Shown here in pieces: positions 1,039-6,023 of a DNA stretch of 64,000 nucleotides (its first letter is position 1; each line of letters begins with the position of its first letter). A program made the position numbers and the translations under genes. The stretch lies in assembly GCF_044324785.1 (NCBI RefSeq), contig NZ_CP172127.1; one strand, written 5' to 3'. The stretch is from Escherichia coli (lineage in GTDB: Bacteria > Pseudomonadota > Gammaproteobacteria > Enterobacterales > Enterobacteriaceae). Below the pieces are notes generated by a model that saw only the letters and a list, made by a program, of their open reading frames with translations, was not told the origin of the DNA and ran no database searches.

Positions 1039-1618
1039 AACATTCCTTATTGTTCATCTATTTCGCTAAATTTTTGTAAATCGGAGAATTAGAGCAGGAA
1101 TGGATTTTCTTCTACGCGGAAATAAACACAATGCGTCATATCTTCCTGATATAATTACCTTTAACTTCCCTTTCATTTCCACCCGGTAATATTTGTGTAT
1201 AAAAAAAGGGCAGTGATAGTATCGTAAAGGAAAACGTTAACAACTATCAAAAAGCGCTCATTTTAAAAAGTTATGATGTTCACCGATAGTGTGTGAAGTG
1301 ATATTTTTGTGATGTTTTAGATGTGTAATAATGAACCAGGTTAAAGTGTATTTAAAAATGTGTTGTATTGGCGACTGAAATCTGCCCTTTAAAAGGGGGG
1401 ATAGCACTGAGACAAAGAGACATTGCTTCTCCGATAAAATGTCAGAGAAGCATGATTGCGTGGTGATTGTCGATTGATGACTTACTGACGGATCCGTCAT
1501 CATTCTCAAAGCATTAGTTCAATCATTTGTGATTTTTAAGGATTATCCTGTCTATGATTTTCTACTTAGAAGGATATGGCACTAACTATGCATCTTATAG
1601 TTTACTGTCGGCATCTAT

Positions 1619-2620
1619 TTAAAATAGCATTTGAGTCAAATAGCCCATCAAGATAGCCATACCTAAGATAACCGTCAGGAATGCAACTATCATCGGTATT
1701 CTGAACATTGATTTAAGTAATATCACTTCCGTCAAACTTGCTCCGGCACTGCCGATGATTAATGCCATTAATGCTCCCAGACCCATTCCTTTTGTCATCA
1801 AAACAGATGCCAGAGGGATAATCGCCTCTGCCCGGATATACAGCGGAATTCCGACAACGGCGCTCAATGGGATGGCGAAGGGATTATCTGCCCCTGCATG
1901 AGCGGCAATCCACTCTGAGGGAATAAAGCCATAAATAAAAGAGCCTATTAATACCCCTAACAAAAGATATGGCAGTACATCTTTAAACTGTTGCAACGCA
2001 TCTTTGGTGGCTAGTTTTATGGGATTAATACTTACCACAGCTTTGGTACTGCAACAGTTTACTACAGGTTTCTCAATGGCTTTAGCCGCTGGACTACAGC
2101 AACTCGCTTTTATCGGCGTATATGTCGTCCCCGGCGAAGTTTTGGCTGGAGCACAACAATTTGCTGATGAGCTTTTACTGGCAATGATATGACGTTCAAA
2201 TCCCAGAGAATCCAGGATAATACTGGCAAGTACGGAGACGCCGGCGGCGATAATCGCGTACAACAAGGTAACTTTCCAGCCAAAGGTCACCCACATTAAC
2301 CCGACGATAATGGGATTAAGTAATGGTGAAACAAATAAAAAAGTGAGAGTCGGACCAAACCCGGCTTTCGCTGATAACAATCCACGTAACATGGGGATTG
2401 TCGAGCAACTACAGAACGGGGTAACGGCTCCCAATAGAGCAGCCAGGAGATAGCCTCTCCCTTTTCTGGCCCCCATCATCTGCTGGATTTTATGGTCTGG
2501 CACCTTTTGTCTTATCAGGCTGACACCGGCACTTATCACTATAAACAGCAAAGAAAGCTCGACGGCGAGAAACACAAACATCTCTGCGGCATCTTGCAGC
2601 ATCGCAAGCCAACTACTCAT
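1619..2620 (-). CDS. arsP: ArsP-like (DUF318/YraQ-type) permease, putative organoarsenical efflux permease
   Basis: Multi-pass hydrophobic protein with an exact TPFCSCSxxP motif (TPFCSCSTIP) and a Cys-rich central loop; start chosen at ATG 2620 (GAGG RBS at correct spacing) rather than the ORF-track start at 2632. Confidence 0.6.
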   Translation of the reverse strand: MSSWLAMLQDAAEMFVFLAVELSLLFIVISAGVSLIRQKVPDHKIQQMMGARKGRGYLLAALLGAVTPFCSCSTIPMLRGLLSAKAGFGPTLTFLFVSPLLNPIIVGLMWVTFGWKVTLLYAIIAAGVSVLASIILDSLGFERHIIASKSSSANCCAPAKTSPGTTYTPIKASCCSPAAKAIEKPVVNCCSTKAVVSINPIKLATKDALQQFKDVLPYLLLGVLIGSFIYGFIPSEWIAAHAGADNPFAIPLSAVVGIPLYIRAEAIIPLASVLMTKGMGLGALMALIIGSAGASLTEVILLKSMFRIPMIVAFLTVILGMAILMGYLTQMLF

Positions 2621-2726
2621 ACGTAACCTCATTGAATAAATCTATATTTCCAGAATAATCGAAATGAAATTCAGATCAAGATATTTCTGGTATTATCGAA
2701 ATATCAACCAGACAAAGGGGTGTCAT

Positions 2727-3023
2727 ATGCAGTTGGAAGAAGTTGCTAAAGCGCTGAAAGAGCTAGGTCACCCGACCCGTTTGTTCATATTCAAACACCT
2801 GGTCAAAGCGGGGGAACAAGGTTTGCCGGTCGGTGAGTTGCAAAAGCAGCTTGGGATACCCGGCTCTACACTCAGTCACCATATTTCAGCACTGGTATCG
2901 GTAGGGCTGGTCAAACAAAACCGTGAGAGTCGAACGCTGATGTGTGTTTCGCAATACGCAATGCTGGAAGCGATAATTGAATTCTTACGCGAGGAGTGCT
3001 GCGTAAATAGCAAAATTGCCTGA
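2727..3023 (+). CDS. ArsR/SmtB-family transcriptional regulator, second copy, divergent from the ArsP-like gene
   Basis: HTH region HPTRLFIFKHL...GELQKQLGIPGSTLSHHISALVSVGLV; cysteines are C-terminal (CVSQY, ECC) and the canonical ELCVCDL site is absent; start at internal ATG 2727 with AAAGGGG RBS. Confidence 0.7.
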   Translation: MQLEEVAKALKELGHPTRLFIFKHLVKAGEQGLPVGELQKQLGIPGSTLSHHISALVSVGLVKQNRESRTLMCVSQYAMLEAIIEFLREECCVNSKIA

Positions 3024-3145: not shown

Positions 3146-3571
3146 TTATTTCAACCGTTTACCCGCCTCATCAACCACTTTCTCGCCATCTTCCTTGGTG
3201 AACGCGCCTTGTTGCGCATTTGGCAGAATTTCCAGCACCACTTCTGAAGGGCGGCACAGGCGAGTTCCCAACGGCGTCACCACAATCGGGCGATTAATCA
3301 GAATCGGGTGCTGAAGCATAAAGTCGATTAACCGATCGTCAGTAAATTTATCTTCTGCAAGGCCCAGTTCCTCATACGGCTCGACGTTTTTACGCAACAG
3401 CGCGCGTACGGTAATCCCCATATCGGCAATGAGTTTGACCAGCTCATCGCGCGTTGGCGGTGTTTCCAGATAATAGATAATGGTCGGTTCTGTACCGCTG
3501 TTGCGGATCATCTCCAGCGTATTACGCGACGTACCGCAGGCCGGGTTGTGATAAATGGTAATGTTGCTCAT
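3146..3571 (-). CDS. arsC: Arsenate reductase (glutaredoxin-dependent)
   Basis: 141 aa, MSNITIYHNPACGTSRNTLEMIR..., recognised as E. coli ArsC. Confidence 0.95.
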   Translation of the reverse strand: MSNITIYHNPACGTSRNTLEMIRNSGTEPTIIYYLETPPTRDELVKLIADMGITVRALLRKNVEPYEELGLAEDKFTDDRLIDFMLQHPILINRPIVVTPLGTRLCRPSEVVLEILPNAQQGAFTKEDGEKVVDEAGKRLK

Positions 3572-3583
3572 ATCAATATCTCA

Positions 3584-4873
3584 TTACAAAGTGAAAGAGA
3601 GACGTAGCGCCAGCGCAGCCAGCGTCACAAAAAGCACCGGCAGGGTCATGATAATCCCTGTACGGAAGTAATATCCCCAGCTGATAGTCATATTCTTCTG
3701 CGAAAGAACGTGCAGCCAGAGTAGCGTAGCCAGGCTACCAATTGGGGTAATTTTCGGTCCCAAATCGCAGCCAATCACGTTGGCATAAACCATCGCTTCT
3801 TTGATAACGCCAGATGCCGTGCTGCCATCAATGGACAACGCGCCAACCAGTACCGTCGGCATATTGTTCATAATAGAAGAGAGGAAGGCAGTGAGGAATC
3901 CGGTGCCGAGCGTCGCGGCCCACAGGCCGTTTTCAGCCAGCACGTTGAGTACGCCAGAAAGATATTCCGTTAGTCCGGCATTGCGCAGGCCATAAACCAC
4001 CAGATACATGCCGAGCGAGAAGATGACAATCTGCCAGGGCGCACCGCGCAGGACTTTACCCGTATTAATTGCATGACCGCGTTTAGCGACGGCAAATAAT
4101 ATCAGCGCGCCCACTGCCGCAATGGCGCTTACCGGAATGCCGAGCGGTTCCAGGACGAAAAATCCCACCAGCAGAAGCAGTAAAACAACCCAGCCAGCTT
4201 TGAACGTAGCAGGATCTTTAATCGCTTCTGCGGGAGATTTCAGCAGCGCCATATCGTAGTTCTGCGGAATATCTTTGCGGAAATAGAGATGCAACATCAC
4301 CAGCGTGGCAACAATTGCGGCGATATCCACCGGCACCATCACCGAGGCATATTCGCGAAAGCCGAGGCCAAAGAAATCTGCGGAAACGATATTCACCAGG
4401 TTGGAGACAATAAGCGGCAGGCTGGCGGTATCGGCAATGAATCCGGCCGCCATCACAAACGCCAGCGTCGTGCCTTTACTGAACCCTAAAGCCAGCAGCA
4501 TGGCGATGACAATCGGTGTCAAAATAAGCGCCGCGCCATCATTGGCAAACAGGGCGGCAACGGCAGCACCGAGCAGGACAATCCAGGTAAACAGCAAGCG
4601 ACCGCGTCCATTGCCCCAGCGTGAGACGTGCAGCGCCGCCCACTCAAAAAAGCCGGACTCATCCAGCAGCAGGCTGATGATAATGACGGCAATAAACGCC
4701 GCCGTCGCGTTCCAGACGATATTCCACACCACAGGAATATCACCCGGATGTACCACGCCCGTAACTAACGCCAGTACTGCGCCGAGTGTTGCACTCCAGC
4801 CGATGCCTAAACCTTTCGGCTGCCAGATAACCAATACGATGGTCAGGACAAAGATAGCGCCTGCCAGTAACAT
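3584..4873 (-). CDS. arsB: Arsenite efflux pump
   Basis: 429 aa from [13 protein letters not shown]...; polytopic membrane protein; GGGAGG RBS before ATG 4873. Confidence 0.95.
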
Positions 4874-4927
4874 AATGCCTCCCGGAAAAAACACATGTGC
4901 AAATCCATATGTGTTTAGATAAATTTT

Positions 4928-5281
4928 TTAACTGCAAATGTTCTTACTGTCTTCGGAACAATTTTGTCGAGCCAGGTTGCGGACAATCACCTGAACCTTT
5001 TCCTGTTCGCATCGCCAGGCCTGCTCAATAATTTTCGCGGCCCATGATGGAATATGCGGTGATAAGCGGTAATGAACCCACTTACCCTGCTTGCGATCCA
5101 GCAATAGCCCACTTTCACGCAGCAATGCCAGGTGGCGGGATATCTTGGGCTGCGACTGATCGAGGGCAGTACAGAGATCGCAGACGCATAATTCTCCCAG
5201 CTCGCTGAGCAGTAAAACGATGCCCAGACGGGTTTCATCAGCAAGAATTTTGAACAGTTGGATGGGTAACAGAAATGACAT
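4928..5281 (-). CDS. arsR: Arsenical resistance operon repressor
   Basis: 117 aa with the canonical metal-binding motif ELCVCDL. Confidence 0.95.
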   Translation of the reverse strand: MSFLLPIQLFKILADETRLGIVLLLSELGELCVCDLCTALDQSQPKISRHLALLRESGLLLDRKQGKWVHYRLSPHIPSWAAKIIEQAWRCEQEKVQVIVRNLARQNCSEDSKNICS

Positions 5282-5525: not shown

Positions 5526-5662
5526 CTATTAGCCAGTGGCTAACATTGCAAGAATTAGCGATTTCTTCAGCTGGCGAAGGGACAGTTTGCTATACATGTT
5601 GGTGAAAGAGGATTTATATACTTTCATCGGGTCGCTGCCGTACCAAGCCTTGTCCGAATCCG

Positions 5663-5762
5663 GACGTAAAAAAACCGACTTCGCGTCGGTTTTTTACTTT
5701 CCAGCCCTGAGTTGGTGGCTCTGGTTGGAGTGAGAATGCCATCATCTAACGCATCAATGCTA
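5663..5762 (-). ncRNA. agrB: agrA/agrB-type antisense sRNA repeat, copy 2
   Basis: Second copy of the same unit with the same terminator hairpin; position matches the K-12 arsR-gor intergenic dinQ-agrAB locus. Confidence 0.45.
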
Positions 5763-6023
5763 ATACCATACTGAAACTATTGCAAGGACGTGCTGGTTTT
5801 ATAACCTGCATGTACTGTATGATTATCCAGTTAGCTCTGAGGCATTTTCACTCTGGTAATGCGCATAAACGCTTTCAAAGTCCTGGTCAGAAGTACGGGT
5901 GGTGCCGTTAACTGATGCTCTGGCCGGAGTGAGAGAGTTCTTATCTAACAATGAGACATGCGCCGTGACAGGCAGTGGATGAGTAAGCGGATGCATTCTC
6001 ACTCCATCGCATGGAGAAAACGG

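What the first reader, a model, noticed from the sequence alone, without database searches (positions are those of the whole stretch)
2040..2170. Three Cys-Cys doublets in the central loop of the ArsP-like permease
Between the two membrane halves the protein has a Ser/Ala/Pro-rich linker with three CC pairs (NCCAP, SCCSP, NCCST) spaced ~15-18 residues apart. Vicinal cysteines like these could bind soft metals or metalloids, or act as a redox-sensitive regulatory loop.
Basis: seen in the sequence. Interest (0 to 1): 0.4.

Follow-up and report, generated by a model that had tools for sequence, protein, structure and literature searches.

The report
Cysteine-pair loop in an ArsP-type permease
An accessory Escherichia membrane exporter related to the organoarsenic pump ArsP has a flexible loop, probably facing the cell interior, that carries three adjacent-cysteine pairs; such pairs recur in variable numbers across this transporter clade and most likely grab thiol-loving toxic metalloids for export.

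Summary
The 337-aa ORF at 1619-2632 (minus strand) has CC doublets at residues 159-160, 178-179 and 193-194. Its only other cysteines are the family-invariant TPFCSCS motif. Shuffling the loop gives three or more CC doublets with P about 4e-4.

The protein belongs to Pfam ArsP_1 and is 32% identical to Campylobacter jejuni ArsP. It is transcribed divergently from an ArsR repressor whose EECC pair aligns on the As(III)-binding Cys95-Cys96 of AfArsR. The gene pair sits beside arsRBC here, and beside arsRDABC (with arsH in one case) in Salmonella and Citrobacter.

The loop sequence and length are hypervariable, but CC doublets are kept: 58 are observed against 11.7 ± 3.1 expected in 94 diverse homologues, and CxxC is absent. 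Doublets are gained by tandem duplication in other lineages. C. jejuni ArsP has one too.

AlphaFold2 predicts the loop as disordered. The fold resembles hairpin-containing elevator transporters, and the charge distribution places the loop in the cytoplasm.

Best reading: the loop is a dispensable cytoplasmic thiol tether that captures trivalent (organo)arsenicals or other soft species and feeds them to the CSC site. The substrate and the relay step are inferred, not shown. I rate this a new variant of a known kind, of moderate interest.

The parts
1619..2632 (-). ArsP-family (PF03773) permease gene. The ORF is 337 aa; the likely true start is M5 at 2620, giving 333 aa.
   Evidence: ArsP_1 scores 179.7 bits. 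The protein is 32% identical to C. jejuni ArsP. RefSeq E. coli annotates the 333-aa form as 'permease'.
2402..2422 (-). TPFCSCS motif (residues 71-77; C74 and C76), the family-invariant putative substrate site. It lies at the break between helices 59-70 and 75-87.
   Evidence: T71, P72, F73, C74, S75, C76 and S77 are each at least 90% conserved in 98 sequences. The helix break is seen in the AF2 model. The C(S/T)C motif is described in PMC4435449.
2024..2185 (-). Disordered, Ser/Ala/Lys/Pro/Thr/Cys-rich central loop (residues 150-203). The wider hydrophilic linker is residues 143-212, window 1997-2206.
   Evidence: AF2 pLDDT is 50-65 with no secondary structure.
2153..2158 (-). CC doublet 1 (C159-C160, NCCAP), the membrane-proximal and positionally most conserved pair.
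   Evidence: BLASTP aligns it with the SSCCS doublet of C. jejuni ArsP. The first CC lies 12-19 residues after the TM4-end anchor in 35 of 61 CC-bearing homologues.
2096..2101 (-). CC doublet 2 (C178-C179, SCCSP).
   Evidence: A 21-nt direct repeat (2088-2108 and 2145-2165, 76% identical, 57 nt apart) links doublets 1 and 2, which suggests an old 19-codon duplication.
2051..2056 (-). CC doublet 3 (C193-C194, NCCST).
   Evidence: It lies in a segment that is swapped or deleted among Escherichia lineages, while a CC is retained each time.
2636..2705 (.). Divergent promoter region with two conserved operator-like imperfect palindromes: O2 at 2636-2660 and O1 at 2680-2705 (GATATTTC-N10-GAAATATC).
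   Evidence: Inverted repeats were found. Both elements are conserved in E. coli, Salmonella, Citrobacter and Aeromonas intergenic regions. Binding was not tested.
2727..3023 (+). Divergently transcribed ArsR/SmtB repressor (98 aa) with invariant Cys73 (2943-2945) and an EECC motif (2991-3002; C91-C92).
   Evidence: NCBIfam HTH_metalloreg scores 61.9 bits against a cut-off of 55. The best PDB hit is AfArsR 6J05 (E 4.7e-10), with CC aligned on Cys95-Cys96. C73, C91 and C92 are conserved in 121, 118 and 117 of the 121 aligned sequences (the query plus 120 homologues).
3146..5281 (-). Adjacent chromosomal arsR-arsB-arsC operon: arsC 3146-3571, arsB 3584-4894, arsR 4928-5281.
   Evidence: All three pass the NCBIfam cut-offs: PRK10026 at 305 bits, ArsB at 730 bits and PRK10141 at 231 bits.

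Best explanation
The gene encodes an ArsP-family secondary efflux permease. It forms a self-contained, divergently transcribed module with an AfArsR-type repressor that senses through a vicinal CC pair. The module is attached to ars operons in enterobacteria.

The three CC doublets lie in an intrinsically disordered, lysine-rich loop. This loop connects the two inverted structural repeats on the cytoplasmic side, next to the cytoplasm-facing hairpin whose tip carries the invariant CSC motif.

Proposed mechanism: each reduced vicinal thiol pair reversibly binds one thiophilic substrate. The most likely substrate is a trivalent organoarsenical such as methylarsenite, which needs only two sulfur ligands. 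As(III), Sb(III) or a soft metal ion are possible alternatives. The flexible loop would thereby concentrate substrate at the mouth of the transporter and pass it by thiol exchange to the CSC site for export. It would act as a built-in, dispensable metallochaperone or antenna, comparable to ArsD handing As(III) to ArsA.

Shown here:
- The doublets exist and are non-random.
- They are retained and expanded across the clade.
- The loop is predicted to be disordered.
- Family membership and the gene contexts.

Inferred:
- The cytoplasmic location.
- The substrate identity.
- Binding and hand-off.
For: Identity:
- Pfam ArsP_1, E 9e-53.
- 32% identity over the full length with the C. jejuni ars-operon ArsP, E 2e-54.
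- TPFCSCS is invariant and is the 'tPF-C(S/T)C' cluster-2 signature of PMC4435449.

Context:
- The pair lies next to arsRBC here and in E. coli.
- It lies next to arsRDABC plus arsH (TIGR02690, 405 bits) on a Salmonella island, and next to arsRDABC in a Citrobacter prophage.
- It lies next to arsA, arsD and acr3 in Endozoicomonas.
- About 20 of 80 family loci are ars-linked.

Regulator:
- The best solved relative is AfArsR, with EECC aligned on its As(III)-binding Cys95-Cys96.
- The CC is conserved in at least 117 of the 121 aligned sequences.
- The same regulator type is adjacent in 22 of the closest loci and next to P0121, which has 7 CC.
- A two-Cys site of this kind is MAs(III)-selective in SpArsR (PMC11868830, PMC13236881).

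Selection on CC:
- 58 CC against 11.7 ± 3.1 in shuffles, with a maximum of 22.
- Cys makes up 4.3% of loop residues against 1.2% elsewhere.
- Cys-Cys spacings of 1 occur 59 times, of 2 occur 24 times, of 3 never.
- Close homologues keep 2-4 CC while loop length runs from 48 to 127 aa and the sequence is replaced.
- Loops of at least 45 aa have CC in 53 of 79 cases; shorter loops in 8 of 95; Spearman rho 0.66.
- Recent tandem DNA duplications of CC units occur in L033 and L016.

Location:
- The loop is disordered in the AF2 model.
- With re-entrant hairpins, K+R sums are 15.2 inside against 2.8 outside; a plain 8-TM model gives 7.5 against 10.6.
- Other members place Cys-rich, K/R-rich segments before exactly one extra TM helix.

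Chemistry precedent:
- ArsD has vicinal pairs Cys12-13, Cys112-113 and Cys119-120 (PMC4562236).
- An organoarsenical can 'walk' along a thiol track by exchange (PMC8395643).
Against: - No binding or transport data exist for this protein or its loop.
- The loop is dispensable for the family. Ars-linked Firmicute and other homologues have 28-41-residue loops with no CC pair, nearly all cysteine-free. One marine clade with the same regulator has only a 38-residue loop with C-x3-C.
- Individual doublets are gained and lost, for example CC to CR, GC or YC in Aeromonas and Salmonella, so no single site is essential.
- Characterised relatives differ in substrate: SO_0444 handles Cu/Zn (PMC3219624). 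Most marine regulator-permease pairs have no ars genes within 5 kb.
- One CC-loop homologue (P0140) sits with a PadR regulator, a CDF transporter and a ZraP-like gene. Arsenicals are therefore not the only candidates.
Confidence: 0.5

Rival explanations
1. The loop binds substrate but does not relay it. It acts instead as a sensor or gate, for example an autoinhibitory tether released on metalloid binding, or as a local metallothionein-like buffer that simply sequesters the toxicant at the membrane.
For: The comparative evidence for CC selection is the same. Variable copy number and tandem expansion fit a capacity or buffer role at least as well as a relay. The C-terminal vicinal pairs of ArsD are regulatory, not chaperone, sites (PMC4562236).
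Against: At most 3-7 sites per transporter molecule gives very little buffering capacity. Nothing in the AF2 model shows the loop docking onto the transport path. The membrane-proximal position of the first CC is conserved, which suggests that proximity to the entrance matters.
Confidence: 0.2
2. The permease-regulator pair responds to reactive sulfur species, electrophiles or oxidants rather than metalloids. The CC pairs and the regulator cysteines would act through disulfide or polysulfide chemistry, as in BigR, SqrR and YgaV-type ArsR regulators that control membrane proteins.
For: YgaV (3CUO) and BigR (3PQJ) are the second and third PDB hits of the regulator, at E about 2e-7. NCBIfam BigR gives a weak hit. 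Most marine pairs stand alone without ars genes. The invariant Cys73 has no counterpart in AfArsR.
Against: BigR scores 38.5 bits against a cut-off of 155. There is no cysteine at the alpha-2 position used by BigR and SqrR. The CC aligns exactly with the As(III) site of AfArsR. The pair is linked to ars operons repeatedly and independently. CxxC redox motifs are absent from the loops. The permease is homologous to a proven organoarsenical exporter.
Confidence: 0.12
3. The loop is a neutral, low-complexity linker. The cysteine pairs are by-products of slippage and duplication of short units and have no function.
For: The loop is hypervariable in length and sequence, and it is absent from many functional-looking family members. 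Tandem duplication can multiply any motif. Single doublets are often lost.
Against: CC pairs are fivefold over-represented against shuffles of the same loops, beyond all 2000 shuffles. Cys is otherwise rare, yet 74 of 79 long loops contain it. CC recurs in non-homologous loop segments, in independent lineages, and in N-terminal tails of other members. The position of the first CC is conserved from E. coli to C. jejuni.
Confidence: 0.1
4. The loop is periplasmic (plain 8-TM topology with the N-terminus out). The cysteines would form structural or redox-active disulfides, or receive the exported substrate outside the cell.
For: If each helix pair is a single spanning helix, an N-out protein would place the central loop outside. 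L1-2 and L7-8 are the most positively charged short loops.
Against: That model puts 10.6 K+R outside against 7.5 inside, whereas the hairpin model gives 2.8 against 15.2. The loop itself has 6 K+R and 1 D+E. The structural neighbours all have re-entrant hairpins and inverted repeats. In P0164 the CC-rich segment is flanked by KSKS and KKKFPFKK before an extra TM helix. Vicinal disulfides are strained and rare.
Confidence: 0.06

Closest known systems
ArsP of Campylobacter jejuni (TC 2.A.119; methylarsenite/roxarsone(III) efflux permease)
   Same: - Same Pfam family.
- 32% identity over the full length.
- Same TPFCSCS motif.
- Both are linked to an ars operon.
- Each has a hydrophilic central loop between two homologous halves, and C. 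jejuni ArsP also has a CC (SSCCS) at the equivalent loop position.
   Different: - The window protein has three doublets against one doublet plus a single Cys.
- It has its own divergent AfArsR-type regulator instead of sitting inside the arsP-arsR-arsC-acr3 operon.
- Its substrate is untested.
ArsD arsenic metallochaperone (R773)
   Same: It has three vicinal cysteine pairs that bind trivalent metalloids. One site hands As(III) to the pump, while the C-terminal pairs are dispensable and lie in a flexible tail (PMC4562236). This is the functional analogy proposed for the loop.
   Different: ArsD is a separate soluble thioredoxin-fold protein that serves the ArsA ATPase. It has no sequence relationship to the loop. 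Here the thiol pairs are built into the transporter itself.
AfArsR / SpArsR class of ArsR repressors (type-2 C-terminal site)
   Same: The neighbouring regulator's best solved relative is AfArsR, and its CC aligns on Cys95-Cys96. Like SpArsR, it lacks the Cys102 equivalent (PMC11868830).
   Different: It has an extra invariant Cys73 that is absent from AfArsR. It is only about 30% identical. Its inducer is unknown. It was not compared directly with the SpArsR sequence, which was unavailable.
SO_0444 Cu/Zn efflux and SaoE families (other PF03773 branches)
   Same: They share the fold and the CSC motif, which is sometimes USC (bioRxiv 10.1101/2022.07.06.499078), and an efflux role for thiophilic metals (PMC3219624).
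   Different: The window protein scores 109 and 85 bits against cut-offs of 300 and 325. SO_0444 is controlled by a ZntR/MerR-type regulator, not an ArsR.
Cys- or His-rich metal-binding tails and loops of metal transporters (N-terminal domains of P1B-ATPases, His-rich loops of CDF/ZIP, vicinal Cys pairs of MerT/MerC/MerF). These comparators are cited from general knowledge, not tested here.
   Same: All are flexible cytoplasmic segments rich in metal-ligating residues, attached to a transporter. They are variable in copy number and usually not essential for transport.
   Different: Those use CxxC, His-rich or membrane-embedded CC sites. Here the unit is a soluble CC doublet within an S/A/P/K/T-rich disordered linker, and CxxC is avoided.

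Membership tests
ArsP / PF03773 (TC 2.A.119) | Full-length match to the ArsP_1 domain above the gathering threshold | tested here: met
   179.7 bits against a cut-off of 32.3, covering profile positions 3-293 of 294.
ArsP / PF03773 (TC 2.A.119) | Conserved C(S/T)C motif in the first membrane half | tested here: met
   TPFCSCS at residues 71-77. Each of these positions is at least 90% conserved in 98 sequences. The motif is described in PMC4435449.
ArsP / PF03773 (TC 2.A.119) | Two homologous membrane halves separated by a hydrophilic loop | tested here: met
   The AF2 helix pattern is repeated across residues 2-142 and 204-336, with a disordered loop between them. PMC7176098 describes 4+4 repeats with a loop of variable size.
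ArsP (functional: organoarsenical efflux) | Genetic linkage to arsenic-resistance genes | tested here: met
   The pair is adjacent to arsRBC here and in E. coli, to arsRDABC ± arsH in Salmonella and Citrobacter, and to arsA, arsD and acr3 in Endozoicomonas. Aeromonas and most marine gammaproteobacterial pairs stand alone.
ArsP (functional: organoarsenical efflux) | Confers resistance to, and transports, MAs(III)/Rox(III) | not testable with these tools
   This needs expression in an ars-deleted host and vesicle transport assays.
SO_0444 family Cu/Zn efflux transporter (NF033936) | Score at or above the NCBIfam equivalog cut-off | tested here: not met
   108.9 bits against a cut-off of 300. P0043, P0121 and P0081 also score 108-121 bits.
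SaoE efflux transporter (NF040736) | Score at or above the NCBIfam equivalog cut-off | tested here: not met
   85.3 bits against a cut-off of 325.
AfArsR-type (type 2) ArsR repressor (neighbouring regulator) | Vicinal Cys pair at the end of the C-terminal helix, equivalent to Cys95-Cys96 | tested here: met
   phmmer aligns query EECC on AfArsR ENCC, PDB 6J05, E 4.7e-10.
AfArsR-type (type 2) ArsR repressor (neighbouring regulator) | Third ligand equivalent to Cys102 for three-coordinate As(III) | tested here: not met
   The tail VNSKIA has no Cys. The invariant Cys73 might substitute, which is untested. The absence of this ligand resembles MAs(III)-selective SpArsR (PMC13236881).
BigR/SqrR persulfide-sensing ArsR (neighbouring regulator) | NCBIfam BigR equivalog score | tested here: not met
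   38.5 bits against a cut-off of 155.

The most novel reading that the evidence does not exclude
ArsP-clade permeases carry a built-in, copy-number-variable 'cis-chaperone'. This would be a disordered cytoplasmic track of vicinal thiol pairs along which organoarsenicals (or other two-coordinate thiophiles) move by ligand exchange to the CSC site at the tip of an inward hairpin. The transporter itself would have an elevator, IT-superfamily-like fold rather than the TOG fold currently assigned. The number of doublets would be tuned by tandem duplication according to exposure.
Probability: 0.25. Interest if true: 0.6.

Novelty: new variant of a known kind. Interest (0 to 1): 0.42.

Why it matters
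About 41% of complete E. coli genomes (2224 of 5426), but not K-12, carry this uncharacterised regulator-permease module beside arsRBC. The same module travels with ars islands on Salmonella mobile elements and in a Citrobacter prophage.

If it exports methylarsenite or aromatic arsenicals, it would extend the arsenic resistance of gut enterobacteria to organoarsenicals. These compounds are produced by gut and soil microbes and were formerly used in poultry feed.

The CC-doublet loop gives a simple, testable handle on how ArsP-type permeases acquire substrate. No mechanism or structure is available for this family: no solved relative was found. The loop would also be a compact natural thiol module for arsenic biosensing or sequestration.

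Tried and rejected
- **Solved structure.** I looked for a solved structure of the permease and found none.
- **Primary papers.** I tried to read the primary ArsP and SpArsR papers (10.1111/mmi.13145, PMC4681449, PMC5653410). They are not held. Statements about Cys65/Cys67 rest on numbering derived from L076 plus my recollection.
- **Literature on a Cys-rich ArsP loop.** Searches found nothing relevant. Most 'arsp' hits were arsphenamine.
- **Domain fusions.** I checked ten longer homologues for Pfam domain fusions that could fix the topology. Only ArsP_1 was found. The N-terminal tails were then read by eye and by hydropathy.
- **Tandem repeats in the window loop.** TRF finds none. Only a weak 21-nt repeat is present.
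- **Plain 8-TM topology.** Considered and rejected on charge balance.
- **SO_0444 and SaoE equivalence.** Considered and rejected on NCBIfam cut-offs.
- **Fe-S cluster binding.** Considered and rejected. There is no CxxC, the cysteine number varies, and adjacent cysteines are poor ligands for a single cluster.
- **Within-E. coli polymorphism.** It spares all six cysteines, but by my own rough hand estimate (no tool call) that is expected by chance about 27% of the time. I did not use it as evidence.
Full report
**Observation**

The window's minus strand carries a 337-aa ORF at 1619-2632. Its translation contains SSSANCCAPAKTSPGTTYTPIKASCCSPAAKAIEKPVVNCCSTKA. The CC doublets are at residues 159-160, 178-179 and 193-194, which correspond to window 2153-2158, 2096-2101 and 2051-2056. 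Start-to-start spacing is 19 and 15 residues.

The protein's only other cysteines are C74 and C76 in TPFCSCS. The 54-residue segment 150-203 has the composition A9 S9 K6 C6 P5 T5. Shuffling the 67-residue loop gives three or more CC in 4.3e-4 of a million trials; shuffling the whole protein gives 8.5e-5.

An alignment of the upstream region with Salmonella, Citrobacter and Aeromonas shows a conserved ATG and Shine-Dalgarno sequence at M5 (window 2620). The real product is therefore probably the 333-aa protein annotated in RefSeq.

**What the gene is**

- Pfam assigns the whole protein to ArsP_1 (PF03773; 179.7 bits).
- NCBIfam's two curated branches of this fold score far below their cut-offs: SO_0444 Cu/Zn efflux at 109 against 300, and SaoE at 85 against 325.
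- A scan of reference genomes recovered the C. jejuni ars locus (L076), where a permease is followed by an Acr3 gene. The window protein is 32% identical to that permease over its full length (E 2e-54).
- TPFCSCS is nearly invariant in 98 aligned homologues. It corresponds to the 'tPF-C(S/T)C' signature of ArsP cluster 2 (PMC4435449).
- C. jejuni ArsP exports trivalent methyl- and aromatic arsenicals, but not arsenite (reviewed in PMC6205960).

**Genomic context**

The gene order in the window is the same as in E. coli: slp, yhiS, permease (leftward), then an ArsR-family regulator (rightward, 2727-3023), then arsC, arsB, arsR and gor.

The pair covers at least 80% of the query in 2224 of 5426 complete E. 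coli genomes. K-12 MG1655 lacks it. A blastn comparison shows a roughly 1.6-kb deletion there that leaves only the last ~70 nt of the regulator gene.

The same divergent pair occurs in other settings:
- In Salmonella it follows arsRDABC on a Tn3/IS66-flanked island, in one case with a bona fide arsH between (TIGR02690, 405 bits).
- In Citrobacter it follows arsRDABC inside a prophage.
- In Endozoicomonas it lies near arsA, arsD and acr3.
- In Aeromonas and most marine gammaproteobacteria it stands alone.

Across 80 diverse family loci, about 20 have ars genes within 5 kb. These include Firmicutes whose permeases have short, cysteine-free loops.

**The regulator**

Its best solved relative is AfArsR (PDB 6J05, E 4.7e-10). 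The alignment places the query's EECC exactly on AfArsR's ENCC, which is the As(III)-binding pair Cys95-Cys96 (site defined in PMC11868830).

The third AfArsR ligand, Cys102, has no counterpart. This is also true of SpArsR, which for that reason responds to methylarsenite but not arsenite (PMC11868830, PMC13236881).

Cys73, Cys91 and Cys92 are conserved in 121, 118 and 117 of the 121 aligned sequences (the query plus 120 homologues). The same regulator type lies next to the permease in 22 of the closest loci, and next to P0121, which has seven CC doublets.

The 94-bp intergenic region holds two operator-like palindromes, at 2680-2705 and 2636-2660. Both are conserved from Escherichia to Aeromonas.

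**Is the loop conserved?**

The sequence is not conserved, but the cysteine pairs are. Among 120 close homologues (Escherichia, Salmonella, a Proteus plasmid, Citrobacter, Aeromonas) the loop varies from 48 to 127 residues. Whole segments are replaced, yet nearly all intact sequences keep two to four CC doublets.

In 94 representatives of 50%-identity clusters:
- Loop length runs from 27 to 136 residues.
- Cysteine makes up 4.3% of loop residues against 1.2% of the rest of the protein.
- There are 58 CC dipeptides against 11.7 ± 3.1 in shuffles of the same loops (maximum 22 in 2000 shuffles).
- The spacing between consecutive cysteines is 1 in 59 cases, 2 in 24 cases, and 3 in none, so CxxC is avoided.

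Over 174 members:
- Loops of at least 45 residues contain CC in 53 of 79 cases and some Cys in 74 of 79.
- Shorter loops contain CC in 8 of 95.
- Loop length and CC count correlate (rho 0.66).
- The first CC lies 12-19 residues after the end of TM4 in 35 of 61 CC-bearing proteins.

BLASTP aligns the window's first doublet with the SSCCS doublet of C. jejuni ArsP.

In other lineages CC units have recently multiplied by tandem DNA duplication. L033 has a 60-nt unit in 2.7 copies at 97% identity, and L016 has a 33-nt unit in 2.8 copies. In the window only a weak 21-nt repeat links doublets 1 and 2, and TRF finds nothing.

A neighbour-joining tree of the membrane core places the short-loop (38-residue, G-C-x3-C) marine proteins as one derived clade nested among CC-loop bearers. 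This tree has no bootstrap support values.

**Where the loop is**

AlphaFold2 with a 98-sequence alignment gives a confident model (pLDDT 87.7) in which residues 150-203 are unstructured (pLDDT 50-65). Each half of the protein shows one long helix, two consecutive pairs of short helices, and another long helix. The first break falls exactly at TPFCSCS.

If the first short-helix pair of each half is such a hairpin, each half crosses the membrane three times. The lysine-rich central loop then lies on the same side as the two most positively charged short loops. Family-wide K+R sums are 15.2 on that side against 2.8 on the other. A plain 8-TM model gives 7.5 against 10.6, in the wrong direction.

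Independent support comes from other family members. Several carry Cys-rich, K/R-rich N-terminal tails followed by exactly one extra transmembrane helix. In P0164 a CC-rich segment is flanked by KSKS and KKKFPFKK before an extra helix.

I therefore place the loop in the cytoplasm, beside the hairpin that presents CSC. This is an inference. I could not inspect coordinates, and the His/Asp-rich N-tails of one subfamily remain unexplained by it.

**Mechanism proposed**

Reduced vicinal thiols bind trivalent arsenicals. A two-sulfur site suffices for R-As(III), as in SpArsR. ArsD uses three vicinal pairs, one of which transfers As(III) to its pump (PMC4562236). An organoarsenical can step along a row of thiols by exchange (PMC8395643).

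The most economical reading is that the loop is an accessory, copy-number-variable capture-and-relay module that feeds the CSC site. It would improve performance at low substrate concentration, and it is not essential, because loop-less relatives exist.

Alternatives are that the loop is a gate, sensor or buffer; that it takes part in a sulfur or redox response; that it is a neutral linker; or that it is periplasmic. Each is weighed in the rivals section. The substrate could also be another soft metal, because relatives handle Cu/Zn (PMC3219624) and one CC-loop homologue sits among metal-homeostasis genes.

**Novelty and verdict**

The protein is a member of a known family. Cys-rich metal-binding appendages on transporters are a familiar principle. 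In the literature I could search, I found no description of a conserved CC-doublet loop in ArsP-type permeases, of this E. coli module, or of its AfArsR-like partner.

I classify the finding as a new variant of a known kind. It is moderately interesting and readily testable.

Noticed in passing
[not shown]
   Followed up: partly
window 1358-2953 compared with K-12 locus L093 6876-6973: E. coli K-12 lacks the permease-regulator pair through a deletion of about 1.6 kb. Only the last ~70 nt of the regulator gene remain next to arsC. The window is only 94.7% (ars region) to 88% (yhiS) identical to K-12, so it comes from a divergent Escherichia lineage.
   Followed up: partly
window 2636-2705: Two conserved imperfect palindromes (TTTCGATAATACCAGAAAT and TTCGATTATTCTGGAAAT) lie in the divergent promoter. 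They are conserved from Escherichia to Aeromonas and are probably operators of the CC-type ArsR.
   Followed up: partly
L011/L012 (Citrobacter) and L007/L008 (Salmonella): The arsRDABC operon plus the regulator-permease pair is carried as cargo inside a prophage in Citrobacter (DinI, RusA, holin and lysozyme genes nearby). In Salmonella it sits on a Tn3/IS66-flanked island with arsH, a TauE-family permease and a ModE-like regulator.
   Followed up: partly
P0164, P0217, P0228, P0255, P0259, P0265; P0161, P0175, P0184, P0186: Other PF03773 members put Cys-rich modules at the N-terminus, followed by one extra TM helix. P0164 also has a MerT-like TM 'CC'. A subfamily with TPLCTFS instead of CSC has long His/Asp-rich N-tails, and still has a proximal CC in the loop.
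   Followed up: partly
L033 5499-5657; L016 4177-4267: There are near-perfect tandem DNA repeats (60 nt in 2.7 copies; 33 nt in 2.8 copies) that encode CC-containing peptide units inside the central loop of Lentisphaeria and Endozoicomonas homologues.
   Followed up: yes
L020 and L021 (same Psychromonas MAG): One genome carries both a short-loop (38 aa, C-x3-C) and a long-loop (87 aa, 4 CC) paralogue. This hints at functional differentiation between the two loop types.
   Followed up: no
window 5652-5768: A ~117-nt stretch between arsR and gor matches the K-12 agrA/agrB small-RNA repeat region beside dinQ. I did not examine it further.
   Followed up: no
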